A stretch of DNA of 64,000 nt, taken from contig JAITKM010000007.1 in NCBI GenBank assembly GCA_031278395.1, positions 222,818 to 286,817 on the forward strand, read 5' to 3'. Each line of letters opens with the position of its first letter. Position 1 is the stretch's first letter. Source of the DNA: Deltaproteobacteria bacterium. Lineage in GTDB: Bacteria > Bdellovibrionota_C > UBA2361 > SZUA-149 > JAITKM01. The position numbers and the translations under genes are program-made. A model generated the notes under the pieces. It was not told the DNA's origin. It saw only the letters and a program-made list of their open reading frames with translations, and searched no databases. Below, one piece after another: positions 6,479 to 48,617 of this stretch.

Positions 6479-6736
6479 GGTTTATGTTTATCGGCTGTTT
6501 AAAGAAATAATGTAAAAAATTACGTAACATATTATAATTTATATTTTTCTGAGTGTAGAAAAACAGCTAATTTATTGAAACTAAAAAAGCACGATTGGCT
6601 GTGTTATTTTTCTAGCTTGATTAATTATCCTATTTATTGATATGCGTTTTGCCTACTAGGTAAATTTGCCTCAGCGTTATAATGATTTTTTAGAAGTTCC
6701 TTGAAGTATTAGAGATACCCTTAGGATATAATTTAT

Positions 6737-8914: not shown

Positions 8915-8955
8915 AAGAGCCTAAAGGTTTCCTAACTTATTAAAGATACCTTAAT

Positions 8956-22655: not shown

Positions 22656-22682
22656 AGGTTCCCTGAATTATTGGAGATATCC

Positions 22683-27505: not shown

Positions 27506-28198
27506 TTATTCCCAGTCTTTGTCATTAGGGAGGTGAAAGGTTGCAACGTTACCTTTGGTAACTTGCTGAATCTCAGTCATGCTTTTTAATTCTTTAAGAA
27601 CAGTCTTAATACGTTTGCCACTTTCTTCTACAACTTTTAGACTTTCTTTTTGTTCTTTTGAAAGTTCTAGTGAAGATTTAAGTAAAAAAATTCCACCAAA
27701 AACAGCGCCTAAAGGATTGTTAATTTCATGTTCAAGCGTCGCAATCAGAGTTTTAATTACTTCGAGTTTTGATTCTTCTAACTTAGTGGCTAATAATTTA
27801 TTTTCGAATTCCTTCCTTTCTAATAAGGCAAAAATTAAAGGAATAAATAACGGTTCTGAAATTTGTCTTTTATGCACAAAGTGCATGGCTCCAGCTCGAA
27901 CGCTTTTAGACGGAATTAGCGGCGAATCATCTGAACTCATGGCAATCTTAGCCGAATACTCAAATTTAGGATGATTAAATAATTGTTCTCCAGTTCCATC
28001 TGGTAGAAAATGGTCAAGAATAGCAATATTAATAAACTCTGTCGTGGTTTCAAGAAAATTAGTAGCTGCGGCTATTGTTTCAGCTACATGGAAAAAAAGA
28101 TTGTTGTTCCAGCTTTTTAGTCTTAATTGTAACAATCTCAAAAATGACTGATCGTCTTCCAAAATAAATATATGTAATGGACGTTCTTCTAGTTTCAT
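27506..28198 (-). CDS. Receiver domain fused to HisKA-like dimerisation/phosphoacceptor domain, with no HATPase domain
   Basis: REC acidic pocket (FILEDD, DHFLPDG). H-box LEHEINNPLGAV. The protein ends ~60 aa later with no ATP-binding G-boxes. Confidence 0.6.
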   Translation of the reverse strand: MKLEERPLHIFILEDDQSFLRLLQLRLKSWNNNLFFHVAETIAAATNFLETTTEFINIAILDHFLPDGTGEQLFNHPKFEYSAKIAMSSDDSPLIPSKSVRAGAMHFVHKRQISEPLFIPLIFALLERKEFENKLLATKLEESKLEVIKTLIATLEHEINNPLGAVFGGIFLLKSSLELSKEQKESLKVVEESGKRIKTVLKELKSMTEIQQVTKGNVATFHLPNDKDWE

Positions 28199-28334
28199 TG
28201 AATGATTAGAGATACCCTATTGTTAAAAATGAGGCTTTATTGTAGTAGCACCTAGTTTTAACTAGTCCCCTTAACTTTAGATTGGATTTTTAACAACCCC
28301 TTATTTTTTTTAAGATAAAAACAAAATTGTAGTT

Positions 28335-36856: not shown

Positions 36857-36894
36857 AATGCTTAGGGGTCTCCAATAATTCAAGGAACCTTCAG

Positions 36895-37674: not shown

Positions 37675-38148
37675 ATGGTCAAAATAAAGAAATTACAATC
37701 CACCAAGATTACCAGTATTCCAGGTGGGAAAGACCCCCTTTTATTAATTGAAGAATTTTTAACTCAACGGGGTTATCAACCTAAGTCTTGTTTGCAATTT
37801 AAAAGCAACGAAGTTGTAACTTGGTCAGTTCCAATTAATGAAGAAGATGAGCTTGAGATTACTTTGGAAAAATTAAACCAGCACACTCAAACAACAATTT
37901 ATTTTGGGATTAATATTTTTGCAGTTCCATTGAAATATACTGAAGCTTTTTTAGCTTCAGCTTTAATTGTGGCTGATAGTTTGATTGGGACAAAAATTAG
38001 TTTGATTGATTACGATCTTGTGCTGAGCGTTACACATTATGTTTATAACATGACTATCGAAGATTTAAATTATTTCTTTGAGTTACTCCTGAGCCAACAA
38101 GAACCTATAAAAAGCGCAATCCTTGAAGGCATGAAGTTAGATTTTTAG
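37675..38148 (+). CDS. Hypothetical cytoplasmic protein (possibly YbjN/secretion-chaperone-like fold)
   Basis: ~157 aa, no TM segments, two-lobed hydrophobic pattern. First gene of a tightly spaced 4-gene operon. Confidence 0.35.
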   Translation: MVKIKKLQSTKITSIPGGKDPLLLIEEFLTQRGYQPKSCLQFKSNEVVTWSVPINEEDELEITLEKLNQHTQTTIYFGINIFAVPLKYTEAFLASALIVADSLIGTKISLIDYDLVLSVTHYVYNMTIEDLNYFFELLLSQQEPIKSAILEGMKLDF

Positions 38149-38176
38149 GTCACCTGAAATACTAGAGATACCCCAT

Positions 38177-40078: not shown

Positions 40079-40111
40079 AGGTCCCCTGAGATATTAGAAA
40101 TACCCTTAATT

Positions 40112-40933: not shown

Positions 40934-41971
40934 ATGTTAAAAATTACTGATACATTGCAACTACAAACGCCCCTGATTTTAGCTCCAATGTCTGGGATTA
41001 CTAATGGAGCCTTTAGAAGTTTGATTTTTCGCGAAAATAAAATTGTAAATTCTCCGATTAATGTTTCCAATTCCCAGACTAATAATTTTCTAACTAACGT
41101 AGATCCTACATCTGAGATAGAAAATGCCGTCGGACTAATGGTTACTGAGTTTGTTAGTGTCGAAGCGCTAATCCGCAATAATCAACGCTGCTTGCAAATG
41201 CTAAAATTTTTGCCAACAGAAAAGCCAATTGCCATTCAAATCTTCGGTTACGAAATTAATCATATGGTGCAAGCCGCCAAAATGGTCGAAGAATTTGGAG
41301 CAGACCTTCTTGACATAAATTGTGGCTGCCCGGTCCCTAAAGTTGTTCGTCGAGGTGGTGGAGCGGAACTTATGAGACAGCCCGGACATCTTCGCAAAAT
41401 GCTGTCAGCCATAAAAAAAGAAATAAAAATTCCAATCGGCGTAAAGATTCGTTCTGGCTGGGATGAAGCTCATAAAAATGCAATTGAAATAGCAAAACTT
41501 GTAGAAGCTGAAGGGGCGAGCATGCTTACGATTCATGCTCGGACAAAAGTGCAGGGGTATAGTGGGAAAGTTGACTATAATATAGTAGAAGAAATTTGTA
41601 AAAGTATCTCAATTCCCACGATTGGTAGTGGAGATATTTGTGATATAGAGGACGCTAAATTTTACTTAGGGTTAGGTGTGCGTGGATTAATGATTGGTCG
41701 AGCATCACTAAAAAATCCGTGGGTGTTTAAGGATATTTTCAATGCTTTGTGTGGGGCAGTTGAGCAGGAAAGTAGAAGTTATCAGGAAATAGTTAGGATT
41801 TTAAGAGATTATAATTTTTTATTGCAGAATGACCTTCCAGAAAAAGCAATTCTTGGTCGTCTTAAACAATTAGTTGCCCAAATTACAAAAGGACAGGTAG
41901 GCGGCACAAAATTGCGGGCTGCTTTGTGCCAAGCTAAAACGACTGAACAATTTTTTGAATTGCTATGCTAG
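40934..41971 (+). CDS. dusB: tRNA-dihydrouridine synthase (Dus family, DusB-like)
   Basis: Motifs LAPMSGITNGAFR and DINCGCPVPKV. TIM-barrel FMN-binding blocks. Confidence 0.85.
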   Translation: MLKITDTLQLQTPLILAPMSGITNGAFRSLIFRENKIVNSPINVSNSQTNNFLTNVDPTSEIENAVGLMVTEFVSVEALIRNNQRCLQMLKFLPTEKPIAIQIFGYEINHMVQAAKMVEEFGADLLDINCGCPVPKVVRRGGGAELMRQPGHLRKMLSAIKKEIKIPIGVKIRSGWDEAHKNAIEIAKLVEAEGASMLTIHARTKVQGYSGKVDYNIVEEICKSISIPTIGSGDICDIEDAKFYLGLGVRGLMIGRASLKNPWVFKDIFNALCGAVEQESRSYQEIVRILRDYNFLLQNDLPEKAILGRLKQLVAQITKGQVGGTKLRAALCQAKTTEQFFELLC

Positions 41972-41983
41972 TTTTAGGTTTTT

Positions 41984-42093
41984 CTGGTATGGGGTTACTT
42001 TTGTATATTGAATTTTTATATAATAATTAGTTAATTCAATATATTATATTTTTATAAATCATTAAAAAAGTAAGAAAAGTAACCCCATACCAG
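41984..42093. repeat. MITE/BIME-like palindromic element, full copy A (18-bp terminal inverted repeats CTGGTATGGGGTTACTTT / AAGTAACCCCATACCAG, AT-rich core)
   Basis: Terminal inverted repeats read directly. Same family as 55230-55357 and 60093-60203. Followed by 3x CAGAAAAACC at 42091-42120. Confidence 0.8.
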
Positions 42094-42120
42094 AAAAACC
42101 CCAGAAAAACCAGAAAAAAC

Positions 42121-42258
42121 AATTCCCACTATTGGTAGTGGAGATATTTGTGATATAGGGGGGGACGCTAAATTTTACTTAAGATTAGGTGTGCAAGGGT
42201 TAATAATTGCTCAAGCGTCACTAAAAAATCTGCGAGTGTTTAAGGATATTTTTAATGC
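42121..42258 (+). pseudogene. Diverged duplicate (~85% identity) of dus-gene internal fragment 41611-41745
   Basis: Direct alignment of the two stretches (AATTCCCAC[G/T]ATTGGTAGTGGAGATATTTGTGATATAG... to ...GGATATTTT[C/T]AATGC). The copy ends at the ATG of the downstream ABC ATPase gene. Confidence 0.75.
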
Positions 42259-42995
42259 TAAATGTTATTAACCTACACAAATCGTTTGCTGACCATCTAG
42301 TCATTAACGGCGTGAGTTTCGTTTTAGAAGGTGGAGATCTAGTTGGTTTAGTTGGACCAAGCGGTTGTGGAAAAAGTGTGCTTCTCAAACTTTTGGCAAA
42401 TGTTATCGAGCCGGACCAAGGGCAGATTCTAATGGGAAGTAATATCAACACTCGCCATATGGTTCCGAATGTCTCATATAAGGTAGGCTTCTTGTTTCAA
42501 GAAAGCGCTTTGTTTGATTCTATGACAGTGTTAGAAAATGTGCTTTTTCCTTTAAAAGATGGCGGATTGCGTGAAACAAAACTTAGCGAGAAATCTGCTT
42601 TGGAACGAGCGTATCAAATTTTAACTGAAGTTGGTTTAGCAAAAGCCTACCACAAATTGCCTGGCGAATTAAGTGGTGGTATGCGGCGTCGAGTTGGGAT
42701 TGCTAGAGCTTTGGTGAATAATCCAGATTTAGTTCTGTTAGATGACCCTACTGGTGGGCTTGATCCAGTTGCGGCAAGCGTTATTATGGATCTAATTAAA
42801 AAACTACATCAAACCTATAAGCCGATTGTAGTTTTAGTTAGTCACGATATTCGACGCTTACTGCCCAATGTAAGTCGAGTGTTAGGTTTGTTTAATGGTA
42901 AAATATGTTGTGATTGCTCACCAGAAATGCTTACGACAACCACTCCTGATTATGTTGTTCAGTTTTTAGCTACGAGATATGATTTTAAAAAGTAA
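42255..42995 (+). CDS. ABC transporter ATP-binding protein (MlaF/Ttg2A-like)
   Basis: Walker A GPSGCGKSVL. Signature LSGGMRRRVGIARAL. Walker B LLDDPTGGLD. H-loop SHD. Confidence 0.8.
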   Translation: MLNVINLHKSFADHLVINGVSFVLEGGDLVGLVGPSGCGKSVLLKLLANVIEPDQGQILMGSNINTRHMVPNVSYKVGFLFQESALFDSMTVLENVLFPLKDGGLRETKLSEKSALERAYQILTEVGLAKAYHKLPGELSGGMRRRVGIARALVNNPDLVLLDDPTGGLDPVAASVIMDLIKKLHQTYKPIVVLVSHDIRRLLPNVSRVLGLFNGKICCDCSPEMLTTTTPDYVVQFLATRYDFKK

Positions 42996-43033
42996 AGATA
43001 ATTAGTTCGTGATTGTTGTAATAGGTTAATAGA

Positions 43034-43810
43034 ATGTCAAAATATCAAAATAAAATAAACGAAATTAGAGAAAAATTTTTAGCTGGGATTAGTGTTCCTG
43101 AAAAGAAACCTTTTGTGCCGGATGATTTTCAACTTGAAGCAATTGAATCCTTAAAACAAGGTAAGGATACTTTAGTTGTTGCTCCAACTGGAGCCGGAAA
43201 AACTTATATTGCCTTAGAAGCAATTCAAGAGATTGTAGCGCAAGGCAAGCGGGTGATTTATACAGTTCCGCTTAAGGCTTTATCGAATGCGAAGTATGCT
43301 GAAATGAAAAGGCTTTTTCAAGGAAAGTTCACGGTTGGAATTTTAACCGGCGATAGAAAAATCGACGGCGATAGTGATGTGGTGGTGGCAACTACAGAGA
43401 TTTATCGTAATGAGCTTTACCGCTACTGCGAAAACTATGGTTTGGTAGTGCTGGATGAATTGCACTATTTGTCTGACCCACAGCGTGGGGCAGTTTGGGA
43501 AGAGAGTATTATTCTGGCGCCACGTTCAGCAACCCTCTTAATGTTGTCAGCTTCAATATCTAATTATCAGGAAGTTGCAGAGTGGATAAAAAGTATTCGG
43601 GATAAGGAAGTTAAAATCGTGCATATTACAAAACGTCCAGTAGAGTTAAGACTTGGTTTTTTACATCCGAAGTTGGGATTATTACCTTTGGCAAATGAGA
43701 ATGGCGAACCCTTAGCAGAAGTGCAGAATTTTTATAGTCAGGCTAACGATACATTCCGTGGGAACTTGGGCGGCAGATTTGGTAGAGGAGCAAGACGGGG
43801 ATTTAGATAA
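43034..43810 (+). CDS. Ski2-like/DEAD-DEAH superfamily-2 helicase, N-terminal (RecA1) half, as a separate ORF
   Basis: Motif I APTGAGKT. Motif II DELHY. Motif III SASISN. Ends with a Gly/Arg-rich tail and a TAA stop. Confidence 0.75.
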   Translation: MSKYQNKINEIREKFLAGISVPEKKPFVPDDFQLEAIESLKQGKDTLVVAPTGAGKTYIALEAIQEIVAQGKRVIYTVPLKALSNAKYAEMKRLFQGKFTVGILTGDRKIDGDSDVVVATTEIYRNELYRYCENYGLVVLDELHYLSDPQRGAVWEESIILAPRSATLLMLSASISNYQEVAEWIKSIRDKEVKIVHITKRPVELRLGFLHPKLGLLPLANENGEPLAEVQNFYSQANDTFRGNLGGRFGRGARRGFR

Positions 43811-43855
43811 AGGGAAATTTTAGGAGGTTCCTTAATTAACTAAGGATAAGCATTA

Positions 43856-45310
43856 ATGATTAAAGAATACAATATTACAGATATAGTTTTAGAATTAGAG
43901 CGATGTAATTTATTACCAACTATCGTTTTTAGAACTTCGCGTTCACAGTGCGATTCAGATATTTTAAAGGCGGTAAATAACAAAGCCTTAGCTTTGCCTA
44001 TCTCGCAGCAGCGAGCTATCAAAGATGCGGTCTATGAAATAGCCAAAAATTATGAAATGGAGTTGGAATTAATTACTACCCATCCACATTATAGTAGCTT
44101 AATTAAAACTGGCGTAGGGGCGCATCATGCGGGGCAACTCTTAATGTGGCGGTTGTTGCTTGAGGAGTTAATGTCATTGGGAGTGTTAAAAGTTCTTTGT
44201 GCAACAGGAACTGTCGCGGCTGGTGTTGACTTTCCAGCTCGCACAACTGTGGTAACAGCCCATACGAAGCGTGGGCATGACGGTTATAATAAGTTACTTT
44301 CAACAGAGTTTCAGCAGATGTCGGGTCGAGCGGGGCGTCGTGGTAAAGATATAGTTGGTTTTTGTGTAGCAGCGCCCTCGGCGTTTTGTGATGCTCGTGA
44401 ATTATTGAAGTTGTCTAAAACTCCGCCAGAGCCGTTGATGTCCGCATATTTTCCAAGCCCTAGCACAGTTTTAAATTTGTTACGCTATCGCAATGTTGAT
44501 GATTTACGTTTTACGGTGGAGCGGAGTTTAGCCAGTTTTGCCGATAAGAAGCAGGCTGTAATTTTGGAGAAAGAGGCGGCTGAGGTTGATGAAAAAATTA
44601 AAGTTAAAGAAGATCTAGTTGGGCGCTTGAAAGGACATCAGAAAGACAATGAAACTAAGGCGCTGACTAAGTTAATCAAGAAGTCTAAACGACTACACAC
44701 GCAAGCTGAGGAATTAAAGAATAAGCAAGGGACGTTGTTAGATCGAACGATAGCCGGTCTGCGGCAATTAGGGCATTTGAATAATTTTACCCTTTCAGAT
44801 AAGGGGTATTGGAGCGCTAATCTTTGCACAGGTATGGTTTTGGAATTAGCTGAAATAATAGAGGCGGGATATTTTGATCATATTAGTCCAGAGCGGTTAG
44901 CGACAATTTTGGCAGGTATTTGTGGTGAAGATCATCGTCAGTATTTAAAGGCGAGTAAATCTCCGATTTCAGATGCTGATTTTCAAGGGTTAAATGAAAT
45001 TTTAAAGCGTGTTCAAGACATGAACTTACCGGGAGCGCCGACGGAGATAAATGTTATAGTTCCTAATGCGGCATACACTATGGAAGTTTGGTTGCAAGCT
45101 GAGAACTGGCAGGAATTTCGGGCGATGTTGTTGTTGAATGGCGCAGCAGAGGGGGATGCTGCTAGATTAATTACCCAAACTGCAGAGCATTTAAATCAGC
45201 TCAAACGGCTTGACGAGAAGTTTCCAAAATTAGCCAAGCGAGCCGAGGAAGCCCGTCGCAGAATTTTAAGACCGCCTCTTACAGAAGCAATTAATTTAGA
45301 TAGCGTTTAA
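43856..45310 (+). CDS. Ski2-like helicase, C-terminal (RecA2 + winged-helix/ratchet) half, as a separate ORF
   Basis: Motif IV region IVFRTSRSQCD. Motif V/VI (ATGTVAAGVDFPARTTV; QMSGRAGRRG). Has its own leader motif and ATG. Confidence 0.75.
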   Translation: MIKEYNITDIVLELERCNLLPTIVFRTSRSQCDSDILKAVNNKALALPISQQRAIKDAVYEIAKNYEMELELITTHPHYSSLIKTGVGAHHAGQLLMWRLLLEELMSLGVLKVLCATGTVAAGVDFPARTTVVTAHTKRGHDGYNKLLSTEFQQMSGRAGRRGKDIVGFCVAAPSAFCDARELLKLSKTPPEPLMSAYFPSPSTVLNLLRYRNVDDLRFTVERSLASFADKKQAVILEKEAAEVDEKIKVKEDLVGRLKGHQKDNETKALTKLIKKSKRLHTQAEELKNKQGTLLDRTIAGLRQLGHLNNFTLSDKGYWSANLCTGMVLELAEIIEAGYFDHISPERLATILAGICGEDHRQYLKASKSPISDADFQGLNEILKRVQDMNLPGAPTEINVIVPNAAYTMEVWLQAENWQEFRAMLLLNGAAEGDAARLITQTAEHLNQLKRLDEKFPKLAKRAEEARRRILRPPLTEAINLDSV

Positions 45311-46583: not shown

Positions 46584-47069
46584 ATGGATTTAGAACTATT
46601 AAATATTTTTACACAATCAGCGGTGAGTGTGATTGAAACAATGGCATTTACAAAAGTTGCTGTTGGCAAACCAGTCTTGAAAGTAGAGAAGGTTACTAAC
46701 GGGGATGTTACTGGTATTATTGGGCTTGCTAATTCAGAGTTTAAAGGGACTTTAGTGATTAGCTTTGAGGCTGAAGCAATAATTGCAGTGGTCAATAACA
46801 TGTTGGGTAGCAATTACACAGAAATGAGTAGCGATGTTATTGATGCAGTTGGCGAAATTACAAATATGATTTGTGGCGCTTCTAAACGTTCTCTTGCCGA
46901 TAGTAAACAGATAATCTTAGATATGGCTTCGCCAACTACTATAATTGGTAGAGATTTAATGATTAATTTTCCGGGTAGCTTACCAGTGGTAGAAATTCCT
47001 TTTGCAACAGAAAAAGGTAAATTTATAATTGATATTACGCTAGGCAAGGAACATCAGTCATTAATTTGA
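46584..47069 (+). CDS. cheX: CheX/CheC-family chemotaxis phosphatase-like protein
   Basis: ~160 aa with a CheX-like conserved block (VGEITNMICGASKRSL). Confidence 0.55.
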   Translation: MDLELLNIFTQSAVSVIETMAFTKVAVGKPVLKVEKVTNGDVTGIIGLANSEFKGTLVISFEAEAIIAVVNNMLGSNYTEMSSDVIDAVGEITNMICGASKRSLADSKQIILDMASPTTIIGRDLMINFPGSLPVVEIPFATEKGKFIIDITLGKEHQSLI

Positions 47070-48617
47070 GAATTTACCTAGCATCACAATTATTTTTGAG
47101 GGGTGGTGAATTACTGCAAAAATAAACGGACGTTCAGCAATAAAAGAAAGCTGTTCAGTATTTTCACTCAAGTTTGTGTTTGCTGCAGTAGCAGTGCCTT
47201 TATCTATAGTAGTTAAATTAGCTTGTTGAATATAAGGATTTAAAAATAAATCAGTAGTGCCGGTAATGCCGGATAAATCAGCTTTGCCGGTAAAGATATC
47301 TGACACGCCTAGTTTTGTTAATTTTTCTTTGACATTAATTCTGGAACTAATTTTTAATTTTGGCACTTTAATATATAATTCCTTCTCGGTGAGAGAAGTT
47401 TCGATAGTATTAATTAGTTCAGCTGATAAAATATTTTCAAGTTCTGCAATGGACATACTGGCATTGGGTAAAATAAATAACAGAGCCAACTCTTGCTCCG
47501 CTGGTTTTAATTCCAGAGCTTGAAAATCTTGGTTAGCAAGATATAAATAATTATTCTTACCAGTAATATAATGTAGCCTTTTTGTTCCAGTGTTATGGGA
47601 GGTAAAAGTTCCTTCGGTTGAAGTAAAATTTTTGTCAAAGGTCAAAGTTAGATTAAACAGATCAGCAATTACCATTCTAGTTGAGATTTTAATTTCTTTA
47701 TTAAAAAGATTTTCAATGTTTTGTTCCGATTTGCTAAAGACCCAGTCATTGATTCTTTTTTGGGTGAAATCAATATCGTTGAAGAAGTCCGATTTATCAA
47801 AATTTAATAGAAAATAATCATTTAGATAGTCATTAAACTCTTTTTGGATGTAATTATTGTCATTTGCCCAGATATTAGAACGATAATAGGAACTATCTTT
47901 ATTGGCTAAAAATATATTGTTAATAGAATTAAAGGTTTCTTTAAAACGCACGCCAATACTTTTTAGATTTTTATCTAGACCTAAGATGTCCTGCATTTGT
48001 TTTTTAGTTTCGTTTTTACTACCAGCGTATAAAGCTGCTAGGTGATGCATTATACTATAAGTTGCCACAACAAAAGAGTCTTCTTTTGTTGCCATGGTTT
48101 GGTAAAGCTTAAGAGAAAATTGGTTATTAGCTGTGGTGATGTCGAAATTTTCTAATAGTTGATCTTGTAAGGGAATAATTTTTTCTTCTTTAACTGGCTC
48201 AGTGATTGTGGCAGATGATTCTACCTCTAGACTATTAGTAGTTGATTTTGAGATTCTAGAGTTTTTAGGCTTGACTTCTTCAAACTGGATATTATTTTTA
48301 CTAACAGCTTGTGCAGTTAGTGGGGCTAGAGATAACGAACAAGCCAGGATGATGAGTAGTATGATTTTGGTTTTATGTTTTAAAACGTCAGATAGAATGT
48401 GCTGAGTAAGTTTATTGATTAGTTTTTTATTAACTGAGACTTCTTCTGCAACATCATAAATGGCACAGATAAGTTCGCCTATAGTGGTATTAAGACTAGA
48501 TTGCGATTGATGGTTTGCTGCGTTTTTTCCCACTTTTATAGGTTTGATTGGCAGTGTGTGGCTAGGTTTAGCATGAGGATTAATTTTTTTCCTATTACTG
48601 TTAGTAACTTTTTCCAT
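47061..48617 (-). CDS. Serpin-family protease inhibitor with ~150-aa N-terminal extension containing a hydrophobic anchor
   Basis: C-terminal serpin signature (FIAERPFIFAVIHHPSKIIVMLGKFSN). Hinge/reactive-centre-loop region upstream. N-terminal hydrophobic segment IILLIILACSLSLAPLTAQA. Confidence 0.8.
   Translation of the reverse strand: MEKVTNSNRKKINPHAKPSHTLPIKPIKVGKNAANHQSQSSLNTTIGELICAIYDVAEEVSVNKKLINKLTQHILSDVLKHKTKIILLIILACSLSLAPLTAQAVSKNNIQFEEVKPKNSRISKSTTNSLEVESSATITEPVKEEKIIPLQDQLLENFDITTANNQFSLKLYQTMATKEDSFVVATYSIMHHLAALYAGSKNETKKQMQDILGLDKNLKSIGVRFKETFNSINNIFLANKDSSYYRSNIWANDNNYIQKEFNDYLNDYFLLNFDKSDFFNDIDFTQKRINDWVFSKSEQNIENLFNKEIKISTRMVIADLFNLTLTFDKNFTSTEGTFTSHNTGTKRLHYITGKNNYLYLANQDFQALELKPAEQELALLFILPNASMSIAELENILSAELINTIETSLTEKELYIKVPKLKISSRINVKEKLTKLGVSDIFTGKADLSGITGTTDLFLNPYIQQANLTTIDKGTATAANTNLSENTEQLSFIAERPFIFAVIHHPSKIIVMLGKFSN

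What the first reader, a model, noticed from the sequence alone, without database searches (positions are those of the whole stretch)
43034..45310. Ski2-like superfamily-2 helicase encoded as two adjacent ORFs with an independent translation start for the C-terminal half
ORF 43034-43810 holds motifs I-III (APTGAGKT, DELHY, SASISN) and ends in a Gly/Arg-rich tail plus TAA. After 45 nt, ORF 43856-45310 starts exactly at the RecA2 domain (IVFRTSRSQCD; QMSGRAGRRG) and continues through the helical/ratchet regions. The gap contains a full copy of the conserved leader motif (AGGAGGTTCCTTAATTAACTAAGGATAAGCATTA-ATG). So the second half appears equipped for independent translation rather than being a recent frameshift pseudogene. 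A two-polypeptide Ski2-like helicase would be unusual.
Basis: partly seen in the sequence, partly recalled or inferred. Interest (0 to 1): 0.55.

Follow-up and report, generated by a model that had tools for sequence, protein, structure and literature searches.

The report
Naturally split two-gene Ski2-like RNA helicase
A Mtr4/Ski2/HelY-type RNA helicase is encoded here as two adjacent genes, and this split is conserved under strong selection across a whole group of Bdellovibrio-related bacteria and, in reversed gene order, in Nitrospira, so it is a real two-subunit motor and not a broken gene.

Summary
ORF 43034-43810 (258 aa) carries helicase motifs Q-III. ORF 43856-45310 (484 aa) carries motifs IV-VI, a helical stalk and a DSHCT domain. 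They lie in the same frame, separated by 45 nt with three in-frame TAA codons.

It is not a pseudogene or a sequencing error.
- All 120 best database hits to the joined sequence are C-halves only.
- In all 83 related genome loci with upstream DNA, the N-half ORF stops within a few bases of the C-half start. The frames and junction types vary, and none is fused.
- dN/dS against the closest relative is 0.04 for each half.

The joined halves align end to end with single-chain helicases of about 700 aa from Desulfomonile-like bacteria. With an alignment they fold into a Mtr4-like ring (pLDDT 91). The break sits in the model's only low-confidence internal loop.

The cut appears to lie inside RecA2, not at its start: the N-half keeps what should be RecA2's first strand.

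Nitrospira carries the same break with the gene order reversed.

The "leader motif" in the gap is a degenerate copy. It is not conserved in relatives, most of which use overlapping or abutting stop and start codons.

I found no literature describing this. I rate it a new variant of a known kind, of moderate interest.

The parts
43034..43810 (+). helN: the N-terminal subunit (258 aa). It contains the Q motif, motifs I, Ia, Ib, II (DELH) and III (SAS) of RecA1, followed by the first strand, hairpin and helix that should belong to RecA2, and a basic Gly/Arg tail.
   Evidence: ORF. Pfam DEAD 6.6e-27. Motifs conserved in 79 orthologues. dN/dS 0.042 against L086. Public annotation MDR2337396.1 'DEAD/DEAH box helicase'.
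43643..43759 (+). Codons for N-half residues 204-242: strand ELRLGFLH, strand LLPL and helix AEVQNFYSQANDTFR. These elements follow the seven strands of RecA1. By the SF2 fold they belong to RecA2.
   Evidence: DSSP and pLDDT 88-97 in the AlphaFold model. Colinear with MTR4 RPTPLQH.... The assignment to RecA2 comes from established SF2 topology and was not measured here.
43754..43807 (+). Gly/Arg-rich C-terminal tail of helN (FRGNLGGRFGRGARRGFR). It is predicted to be disordered. An R/K/G-rich tail is found at this position throughout the clade.
   Evidence: pLDDT <50 at residues 245-252. Median 68% R+K+G in the last 25 residues of 79 orthologues, against 18% in their first 200 residues. Tails listed.
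43808..43855 (+). Stop codon plus the 45-nt spacer. In-frame TAA codons at 43808, 43841 and 43847. AGGAGG at 43822-43827 (28 nt before the ATG). AAGGA at 43842-43846 (9 nt before the ATG). Degenerate copy of the 27-nt leader motif at 43825-43851.
   Evidence: No promoter-like or terminator-like site in the gap. No significant RNA structure, z = -0.16.
43856..45310 (+). helC: the C-terminal subunit (484 aa). It contains the rest of RecA2 (motifs IV, IVa, V, VI), a winged-helix region, a long helical hairpin (stalk without KOW) and the DSHCT/ratchet domain.
   Evidence: ORF. Pfam Helicase_C + DSHCT. Motifs conserved in 78 orthologues. dN/dS 0.043. Model and Foldseek matches to Mtr4/Ski2. Public annotation MDR2337397.1 'hypothetical protein'.
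44528..44767 (+). Codons for the long antiparallel helical hairpin (model residues 483-562). It occupies the position of the Mtr4/Ski2 arch stalk, but no KOW or fist module was found.
   Evidence: Helices H483-515 and H519-562. No KOW hit in Pfam.
44789..45277 (+). DSHCT (helical bundle / ratchet) domain.
   Evidence: Pfam PF08148, 8e-15, residues 312-474 of helC.
42255..42995 (+). ABC-type ATPase gene directly upstream. It is a conserved neighbour and probably in the same operon.
   Evidence: Pfam ABC_tran. Directly upstream on the same strand in 65 of 65 related loci that have enough upstream DNA. No NCBIfam equivalog reaches its cut-off.
40934..41971 (+). dusB-like tRNA dihydrouridine synthase gene, a conserved upstream neighbour.
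   Evidence: Pfam Dus. Best NCBIfam hit is DusB at 274.7 bits, below the 293.3 cut-off. Upstream on the same strand in 54 of 65 loci. Seen in L001, L002 and L004.

Best explanation
This is a naturally split, two-subunit Ski2-like DExH helicase of the Mtr4/Ski2/HelY type. An ancestral single-chain gene of about 700 codons was cut inside a disordered, basic Gly/Arg-rich surface loop.

helN now encodes RecA1 plus the first strand, hairpin and helix that should belong to RecA2. helC encodes the rest of RecA2, the winged helix, a helical stalk and the DSHCT/ratchet domain.

The two genes are probably co-transcribed behind dusB and an ABC ATPase gene. In most relatives helC appears translationally coupled to helN: the stop and start codons overlap or abut, and a Shine-Dalgarno sequence is embedded in the Arg/Gly codons of the tail. 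In this genome helC starts after a 45-nt spacer that has its own AAGGA 9 nt before the ATG.

The two proteins then assemble non-covalently into the usual four-domain ring. The helN strand would complete the RecA2 sheet. The WH and DSHCT domains of helC would pack on RecA1. The ATP site forms between motifs I/II/III of helN and V/VI of helC.

What is shown: the split, its conservation, purifying selection on both halves, colinearity with fused homologues, and a confident Mtr4-like fold with the cut in its only disordered loop.

What is inferred: assembly of the halves, translational coupling, co-transcription, and the role as a 3'->5' RNA helicase.
For: - Both ORFs and their domains are confirmed.
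- The 120 best hits to the joined sequence are all 467-529 aa and cover only the C-half.
- The gene order Dus, ABC, DEAD-half, DSHCT-half recurs in distant relatives.
- In 83 of 83 loci with upstream DNA, the N-half ORF ends at the C-half start. Gaps are -4, -1 or 0..+6 nt in most, N and C frames differ between loci, and none is fused.
- Helicase motifs are conserved in both halves.
- dN/dS is 0.042 and 0.043.
- N+C aligns in one HSP over residues 4-733 with the fused 696-aa P0142, and with other proteins of 666-809 aa. The relatives of P0142 are fused helicases of about 696 aa from Desulfomonilaceae and Syntrophaceae.
- The joined sequence aligns colinearly with MTR4 across the junction. Against the Hel308 profile, the N-half covers positions 31-212 and the C-half covers 251-399.
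- AlphaFold gives pLDDT 91.3 and pTM 0.89. The only internal low-confidence segment is residues 245-252, at the junction.
- The best structural matches are Mtr4, FRH and Ski2, with TM 0.72-0.81.
- In MTR4 the WH domain packs on RecA1 and the helical bundle closes the RNA cavity (PMC6004480). This gives helC a large interface with helN.
- A 5-mer SD lies upstream of the C-half start in 41 of 80 loci, against 8 of 78 for the N-half start.
- Nitrospira has the same cut with the gene order reversed.
Against: - There is no direct evidence here that either protein is made or that the two bind each other.
- The AlphaFold model was built on an artificial fusion, guided partly by fused homologues, so it cannot prove assembly in trans.
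- The SD enrichment before helC is confounded by the Arg/Gly codon composition of the tail.
- Many genes in this window lack an obvious SD, so the AAGGA may not be what drives initiation.
- An N-half-like gene stands alone in another lineage (P0126). RecA1-only proteins may therefore have a life of their own.
- The 68%-identical relative shows a frameshift inside helN, in two low-coverage contigs.
Confidence: 0.82

Rival explanations
1. It is a recent pseudogene, or a sequencing or assembly error: a stop or frameshift has broken an ordinary single-chain helicase gene.
For: The two ORFs are adjacent, in the same frame and colinear with single-chain homologues. The window comes from a metagenome-assembled genome.
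Against: - The same break is found in 83 of 83 independent related loci, with different junction sequences and frames.
- dN/dS is about 0.04 for both halves, at dS of about 1.3-1.5.
- All catalytic motifs are intact.
- There are three in-frame stops and 45 nt of non-coding spacer, not a single lesion.
- NCBI's annotation calls two CDS, neither named as partial or pseudo.
Confidence: 0.02
2. A single polypeptide is still made, through programmed stop-codon readthrough, ribosomal frameshifting or bypassing, or through protein trans-splicing.
For: In the window, and in some relatives, the two ORFs are in the same frame. Overlapping ATGA/TAATG junctions are also places where frameshifting can occur.
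Against: - The window would need readthrough of three TAA codons.
- Junction frames differ among orthologues (offsets of -4, -1, 0, +2, +3, +5 and more). No single recoding mechanism fits them all.
- There is no stable RNA structure at the junction.
- Pfam reports no intein or Hint domain in either half.
- In Nitrospira the C-half gene precedes the N-half gene.
Confidence: 0.03
3. The halves are both functional but act separately. For example, HelN could be a stand-alone RecA1-type ATP- or RNA-binding protein, and HelC a nucleotide-independent RNA-binding or adaptor protein. They would not be one reconstituted motor.
For: A HelN-like protein (P0126) is encoded in three contigs with no C-half next to it. 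The free Gly/Arg tail could act as an RNA-binding element on its own.
Against: - The two genes are strictly adjacent in 83 of 83 Bdellovibrionota loci, and also adjacent in Nitrospira.
- The ATP-site motifs that only work across the RecA1/RecA2 cleft are retained: I, II and III in HelN, and V and VI in HelC.
- HelN carries a strand that, by the SF2 fold, belongs to the RecA2 sheet.
- The evolutionary rates of the two halves are equal.
Confidence: 0.1

Closest known systems
Mtr4 / Ski2 / FRH (eukaryotic exosome-associated Ski2-like DExH helicases) and bacterial HelY
   Same: The joined halves give phmmer E ~1e-65 to MTR4 and Mtr4p, and 1e-63 to Ski2. The domain order is the same: RecA1, RecA2, WH, helical stalk, DSHCT. 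The best Foldseek matches have TM 0.72-0.81. Some source databases label relatives 'ATP-dependent RNA helicase HelY'.
   Different: It is encoded as two polypeptides. It is much shorter (742 aa in total, against ~900-1290). It has a helical stalk, but no KOW/fist module was detected, and it has no long N-terminal extension. No partner such as an exosome or TRAMP is known. No solved HelY structure was among the hits.
Single-chain ~666-810-aa DSHCT helicases of Desulfomonilaceae, Syntrophaceae and other bacteria (e.g. P0142, P0132, P0137)
   Same: They align end to end with N+C at 32-36% identity and share the C-terminal '...LLRPP(L/I/V)' ending. Some have a basic, loop-like segment where the split lies, for example P0144 and P0129.
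   Different: They are fused. The split clade is a separate, 100%-supported group in a simple NJ tree.
Nitrospira 'helicase-related protein' (618-620 aa) plus its neighbouring 355-aa DEAD protein
   Same: It is the same helicase family, cut in the same loop. The N-half ends after the helix that follows RSVPLRAGYMH. The C-half starts MPPSIHPVDLVATLRQRNLTPAIIFLTSRR. The arrangement is conserved in many genomes.
   Different: The gene order is reversed (glgC, C-half, about 80-130 nt, N-half). The C-half is longer and carries a Cys-rich insert. The N-half has an N-terminal extension of about 100 aa. It never grouped as sister to the Bdellovibrionota clade in bootstraps (0 of 100), which suggests an independent fission.
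Split 'large helicase-related protein' (Lhr) of Nanoarchaeota, and naturally split reverse gyrases
   Same: These are precedents for SF2-helicase-containing enzymes encoded as two genes. Lhr is split in N. equitans (NEQ003/409) and in Nst1 (PMC3655853). Reverse gyrase subunits associate into an active heterodimer (PMC4117796).
   Different: They are archaeal, occur in reduced or hyperthermophile genomes, and are often at unlinked loci. The reverse gyrase cuts lie between the helicase and topoisomerase modules, or inside the topoisomerase, not inside the helicase motor core. I did not determine the Lhr split sites.

Membership tests
Ski2-like DExH helicases with DSHCT (Mtr4/Ski2/HelY group) | SF2 helicase core with motifs Q, I, Ia, Ib, II (DExH), III, IV, IVa, V and VI | tested here: met
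   All motifs are present and conserved, but distributed over two polypeptides.
Ski2-like DExH helicases with DSHCT (Mtr4/Ski2/HelY group) | C-terminal DSHCT / helical-bundle (ratchet) domain following a winged helix | tested here: met
   Pfam PF08148 at 55.5 bits, against a cut-off of 22.7. The model superposes on Mtr4 and Ski2.
Ski2-like DExH helicases with DSHCT (Mtr4/Ski2/HelY group) | Four-domain ring fold (RecA1-RecA2-WH-ratchet) | tested here: met
   AlphaFold on the joined sequence gives pLDDT 91.3 and pTM 0.89. Foldseek gives TM 0.72-0.81 to Mtr4. The model is of an artificial fusion.
Ski2-like DExH helicases with DSHCT (Mtr4/Ski2/HelY group) | Arch insertion with a KOW/fist module (specific to Mtr4/Ski2) | tested here: not met
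   Only a two-helix hairpin is present (residues 483-562), and Pfam reports no KOW domain. It is therefore not an Mtr4 or Ski2 orthologue in the strict sense. It is closer to the short bacterial forms.
Ski2-like DExH helicases with DSHCT (Mtr4/Ski2/HelY group) | Single polypeptide carrying both RecA domains | tested here: not met
   There are two ORFs here and in 83 of 83 related loci.
Ski2-like DExH helicases with DSHCT (Mtr4/Ski2/HelY group) | RNA-stimulated ATPase and 3'->5' unwinding activity | not testable with these tools
   This needs biochemistry on co-expressed HelN and HelC.
Hel308 (archaeal/metazoan Ski2-like DNA helicase) | Reaches the NCBIfam equivalog score | tested here: not met
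   109 and 64 bits, against a cut-off of 1200. The similarity is to the helicase core only.
Hachiman HamB / other defence helicases | Full-length match to a PADLOC model, with partner genes nearby | tested here: not met
   Only helicase-core matches of up to 58 bits. The neighbours are dusB, an ABC ATPase and glucokinase.
Split-intein (trans-splicing) proteins | Hint/intein halves at the junction | tested here: not met
   Pfam finds no intein domain in either half. The junction is a Gly/Arg tail on one side and MIKEY... on the other.

The most novel reading that the evidence does not exclude
Ski2-like helicases have been cut repeatedly and independently at one and the same loop inside RecA2: at least once in Bdellovibrionota and once in Nitrospirota, the latter followed by or coupled to a swap of gene order. 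The two-subunit form has been kept for long periods because it does something the fused enzyme cannot. Possibilities include assembly-controlled activity, separate control of subunit dosage, or a freed Gly/Arg tail acting as an RNA-binding or condensing element. That would make this a natural test case for how much covalent linkage an SF2 motor core needs.
Probability: 0.35. Interest if true: 0.65.

Novelty: new variant of a known kind. Interest (0 to 1): 0.52.

Why it matters
SF2 helicases couple ATP hydrolysis to movement through the relative motion of two covalently linked RecA domains. Here the motor is cut inside what should be RecA2, in a way that has been conserved.

- It shows that the covalent link is dispensable in vivo.
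- It marks a permissive site for engineering split helicases.
- It offers two systems for asking how the halves find each other and whether assembly is regulated: uncultured Bdellovibrionota, and Nitrospira, a genus I know to include cultured species (one search lists a named strain).
- It corrects annotation. The C-halves are mostly labelled 'hypothetical protein' or 'helicase-related protein', and the N-halves look like truncated DEAD-box proteins.

The biological role is unknown and is inferred from homology only. Bacterial Ski2/HelY-type helicases are, to my knowledge, poorly understood. The conserved linkage to dusB and an ABC ATPase gives a first handle on function.

Tried and rejected
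- **AlphaFold on the joined sequence without an alignment** gave pLDDT 36 and was unusable. It worked once fused homologues and C-halves were supplied as an alignment.
- **RecA1/RecA2 residue boundaries.** I looked for published boundaries in Mtr4, FRH, MTR4 and Hel308 papers, to prove that the RPxxL strand is in RecA2. None of the accessible texts gives residue ranges, and the Hel308 structure paper is not held. The assignment therefore rests on general SF2 topology and the order of secondary-structure elements in the model.
- **RNA structure at the junction:** none (z = -0.16).
- **Promoter or terminator in the gap:** none.
- **Rfam:** it finds only a tRNA in the window, so the leader motif is not a described RNA family.
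- **PADLOC:** only generic helicase-core similarity, so a defence role is rejected given the housekeeping synteny.
- **NCBIfam:** no family reaches its cut-off for either half.
- **Literature searches** for split Ski2-like or HelY helicases, or for Ski2-like helicases in Bdellovibrio, found nothing.
- **An SD brought close by a hairpin.** I considered that AGGAGG, 28 nt upstream, might be brought near the ATG by the TCCTTA/TAAGGA hairpin. The predicted fold does not support it, and the AGGAGG is absent in the 90%-identical relative.
Full report
**1. What is in the sequence**

ORF 43034-43810 (+, 258 aa) and ORF 43856-45310 (+, 484 aa) exist exactly as described.
- Pfam assigns DEAD/ResIII to the first (6.6e-27), and Helicase_C plus DSHCT (8e-15) to the second.
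- Motif I APTGAGKT, motif II DELH and motif III SAS are in the first ORF. Motif VI QMSGRAGRRG is in the second.
- The first ORF ends in FRGNLGGRFGRGARRGFR followed by TAA.
- The 45-nt spacer keeps the two ORFs in the same frame, but it contains two further in-frame TAA codons, making three in all.
- The window has 36% G+C.
- It is identical to a 302-kb contig of a metagenome-assembled 'Deltaproteobacteria bacterium'. There the two products are deposited as MDR2337396.1 'DEAD/DEAH box helicase' and MDR2337397.1 'hypothetical protein'.

**2. The split is conserved, so it is not an error or a pseudogene**

- I searched 5.8 billion proteins with the two halves joined. The 120 best hits were all 467-529 aa and covered only the C-terminal 65% of the query, at identities from 100% down to 51%.
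- Three distant hits, looked up on their contigs, showed the same gene order: Dus, ABC ATPase, a DEAD half of 259-284 aa, and a DSHCT half of 473-494 aa.
- A scan of one genome per species (GTDB) found 201 relatives. The best 80 loci carry titles such as Bdellovibrionota, Bdellovibrionales, Oligoflexia and 'Deltaproteobacteria', with a few labelled 'Dadabacteria' or unclassified.
- In all 83 loci with upstream DNA, the N-half ORF ends within a few nucleotides of the C-half start. None has a continuous ORF.
- The junctions are of many kinds: 4-nt overlap (11 loci), 1-nt overlap (14), gaps of 0-6 nt (41), and a few long gaps (55, 66, 96 nt). The relative frames of the halves differ between loci. 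That pattern cannot come from one inherited lesion or from one recoding signal.
- Helicase motifs Q, I, Ia, Ib, II and III are conserved in 79 N-halves. Motifs IV, IVa, V and VI are conserved in 78 C-halves.
- Against the closest relative (L086, 90% protein identity), dN/dS is 0.042 for the N-half and 0.043 for the C-half, at dS of about 1.3-1.5.

**3. What it was cut from, and where**

- Searching cluster representatives with the N-half collapses the split clade to about five entries. Single-chain proteins of 666-977 aa follow.
- The joined halves align in a single HSP (residues 4-733) with the 696-aa P0142 at 36% identity, and likewise with P0132, P0137, P0161 and P0139.
- P0142's relatives are fused 'DEAD/DEAH box helicases' of about 696 aa from Desulfomonilaceae, Desulfomonile tiedjei and Syntrophaceae.
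- The joined sequence is also colinear with human MTR4 and yeast Mtr4 across the junction. The junction falls opposite the MTR4 segment GDLAKGDQKGRKGGTKGPSN.
- Against the NCBIfam Hel308 profile, the N-half covers positions 31-212 and the C-half covers 251-399. Nothing is missing between them.
- With an alignment of fused relatives and C-halves, AlphaFold gives a confident model (pLDDT 91.3, pTM 0.89). Its only low-confidence internal stretch is residues 245-252, with the 241-260 blocks at 51-54. This is the Gly/Arg tail and the 258|259 junction.
- The best structural matches are Mtr4, FRH and Ski2 (TM 0.72-0.81), followed by Hel308 and Hjm.

In the model, seven strands of a RecA1 sheet end at residues 193-197. 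After them, the N-half still contains strand 204-211 (ELRLGFLH, preceded by RPV, the RPxPL element of MTR4), strand 215-218 and helix 228-242. The C-half begins with helix 265-274 and the motif IV strand 280-284. In the canonical SF2 fold, RecA2 starts with a strand, then a helix, then the motif IV strand. From this I infer that the cut lies inside RecA2, between its first strand and first helix, and not at the RecA1/RecA2 linker. I could not find published residue boundaries, and I could not read contacts from the model, so this step rests on fold knowledge and not on a measurement.

**4. How it probably works**

*Transcription.* No promoter-like or terminator-like site falls in the gap. The ABC ATPase gene lies directly upstream in 65 of 65 loci, and dusB lies upstream in 54 of 65. 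This points to one operon.

*Translation.*
- In most relatives the stop and start codons overlap or abut, which is the classic arrangement for coupled translation.
- The Arg/Gly codons of the tail (AGG, GGA, CGG AGG ...) contain a Shine-Dalgarno 5-mer in 41 of 80 loci, against 8 of 78 loci before the N-half start. Composition alone could explain part of that excess.
- This genome and its 90% relative are exceptions, with spacers of 45 and 58 nt. What they share is AGGAT(A/T)A...ATTAATG directly before the start. The AGGAGGTTCC part is not shared.
- The RNA around the junction has no significant structure.

*Assembly (inferred).*
- The helN strand would complete the RecA2 sheet.
- In MTR4 the WH domain packs on RecA1 and the helical bundle encloses the RNA cavity (PMC6004480). 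HelC would therefore embrace HelN on several sides.
- The ATP site needs motifs from both subunits.
- The basic tail is R/K/G-rich in every orthologue (median 68% over the last 25 residues). It corresponds to a basic loop in some fused relatives and in MTR4. It may add RNA affinity.
- The cellular role, as an RNA helicase in processing or decay, is inferred from family membership only.

**5. A second lineage with the same cut but reversed gene order**

One of the short N-half-like representatives (P0130, 356 aa) lies downstream of a 620-aa Helicase_C + DSHCT gene.
- That C-half begins MPPSIHPVDLVATLRQRNLTPAIIFLTSRR.
- The N-half ends ...RSVPLRAGYMHPNEKLTPLF...EAKRLFTEYEEETGPSRSR.

This is the same structural position as here. 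Its 120 best relatives are all 585-620 aa and come from Nitrospira, including N. defluvii-labelled MAGs, Nitrospira sp. NS4 and many other MAGs. Contigs of up to 0.9 Mb show glgC, the C-half, about 80-130 nt, then the N-half.

In a simple neighbour-joining tree (114 sequences, 559 columns), each split clade has 100% support. The two never group together in 100 bootstraps, and fused sequences lie between them. This favours independent fissions at the same loop, but the method is crude and the deep branches are unresolved.

A third lineage (P0126) has an N-half-like gene with no C-half beside it.

**6. The leader motif**

- The exact 34-mer is unique in the window.
- A 27-nt element, AGGTYCCYTGAANTATTAGAGATACCC, occurs five times with <=3 mismatches, against none expected. 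Weaker copies bring the family to about seven.
- Most copies sit 3-15 nt before the start codons of unrelated genes: an acyltransferase, DapF, a FliI/T3SS-type ATPase, two proteins without a Pfam family, and, partially, a sigma-54 activator. At g6737 an ATG lies 16 nt downstream of the motif.
- One copy (28191-28217) has no long ORF behind it. It lies antisense to a gene start.
- The copy in the helicase gap has a perfect first box but differs from the consensus at 8 of 27 positions. It is not retained in the 90% relative.
- It matches no Rfam family, and its function is open.

The motif therefore does not carry the argument for independent translation. The comparative data do.

**7. Comparison with what is known, and novelty**

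*Family.* This is a Ski2-like DExH helicase with DSHCT. It is closest in fold to Mtr4 and Ski2, but it is short and has a bare helical stalk instead of a KOW-bearing arch. It fails the 'single polypeptide' and 'KOW arch' features, and it reaches no NCBIfam or PADLOC family threshold.

*Precedents for split helicase-containing enzymes.*
- The 'large helicase-related protein' of Nanoarchaeota (PMC3655853).
- The naturally split reverse gyrases, whose subunits form an active heterodimer. Their cuts lie outside the helicase core (PMC4117796).

*Literature.* Four full-text searches found no description of a split Ski2/HelY-type helicase, or of this gene pair in Bdellovibrionota or Nitrospira. The library does not hold most subscription journals.

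*Verdict.* I classify it as a new variant of a known kind. Interest is moderate: gene fission is common in prokaryotes, but a conserved cut inside the motor core, repeated in a second phylum with permuted gene order, is unusual and experimentally approachable.

Noticed in passing
window 6694-6720, 8925-8951, 22656-22682, 28191-28217, 38147-38173, 40079-40105, 43825-43851 (all + strand); partial copy near 36882-36890 (-): A 27-nt two-box element (about AGGTYCCYTGAANTATTAGAGATACCC, often preceded by a T-run) mostly lies 3-15 nt upstream of the start codons of unrelated genes (an ATG lies 16 nt downstream at g6737). There are 5 copies with <=3 mismatches, against 0 expected. It matches no Rfam family. 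From memory, its second box resembles the conserved 16S rRNA sequence ATTAGATACCC; I did not test this. Its function is unknown: it could be a translation element, a promoter or an operator.
   Followed up: partly
window 28191-28260: One copy of the leader element is followed only by an 8-codon ORF. It lies directly upstream of, and antisense to, the start of the minus-strand gene 27506-28198. This suggests the element may act at the DNA level, or may mark a small unannotated transcript.
   Followed up: no
L093 1056-4071; L095/L096 3501-6524; L097/L098 3501-6557 (Nitrospira): Nitrospira genomes encode the same Ski2-like helicase cut at the same loop, but with the C-half gene (618-620 aa) upstream of the N-half gene (355-356 aa) and downstream of glgC. 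The C-half has a Cys-rich insert, and the N-half has an N-terminal extension of about 100 aa.
   Followed up: partly
L089 3361-4254, L090 1064-1957, L091 449-1342: An N-half-like protein (P0126, 297 aa) ends at the same position with a basic tail but stands alone. The next gene is on the opposite strand and there is no C-half nearby. By eye, its sequence looks very similar to the fused P0127 and P0129; I did not compute this.
   Followed up: no
L087 and L088, about 480-500: In the 68%-identical relative, the N-half gene is interrupted by a 1-nt frameshift at a run of C. The same frameshift is seen in two contigs from different samples, one of them with coverage 0.6. It could be a sequencing error or a real inactivation. 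The C-half next to it is intact, and the junction there is only 5 nt.
   Followed up: partly
L059 3992-4429: A 219-nt segment spanning the end of the N-half tail and the first ~45 codons of the C-half is present three times in tandem in a long-read MAG contig. This gives two extra 72-aa ORFs before the full C-half. It is either an assembly artefact or a real duplication at the junction.
   Followed up: no
window 40934-45310 and 65 related loci: The gene order dusB-like, ABC-type ATPase, helN, helC is conserved. The ABC gene is directly upstream in 65 of 65 loci and dus in 54 of 65. The ABC ATPase matches no specific transporter family above cut-off. Within the 3-4 kb of DNA I held on each side, I did not look for a permease gene. 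Its link to the helicase is unexplained.
   Followed up: partly
window 47061-48617 (-): By eye, this 518-aa ORF has a C-terminal region that looks serpin-like (...FIAERPFIFAVIHHP...), behind an N-terminal region that looks like a signal or membrane segment. I did not test it with any tool.
   Followed up: no
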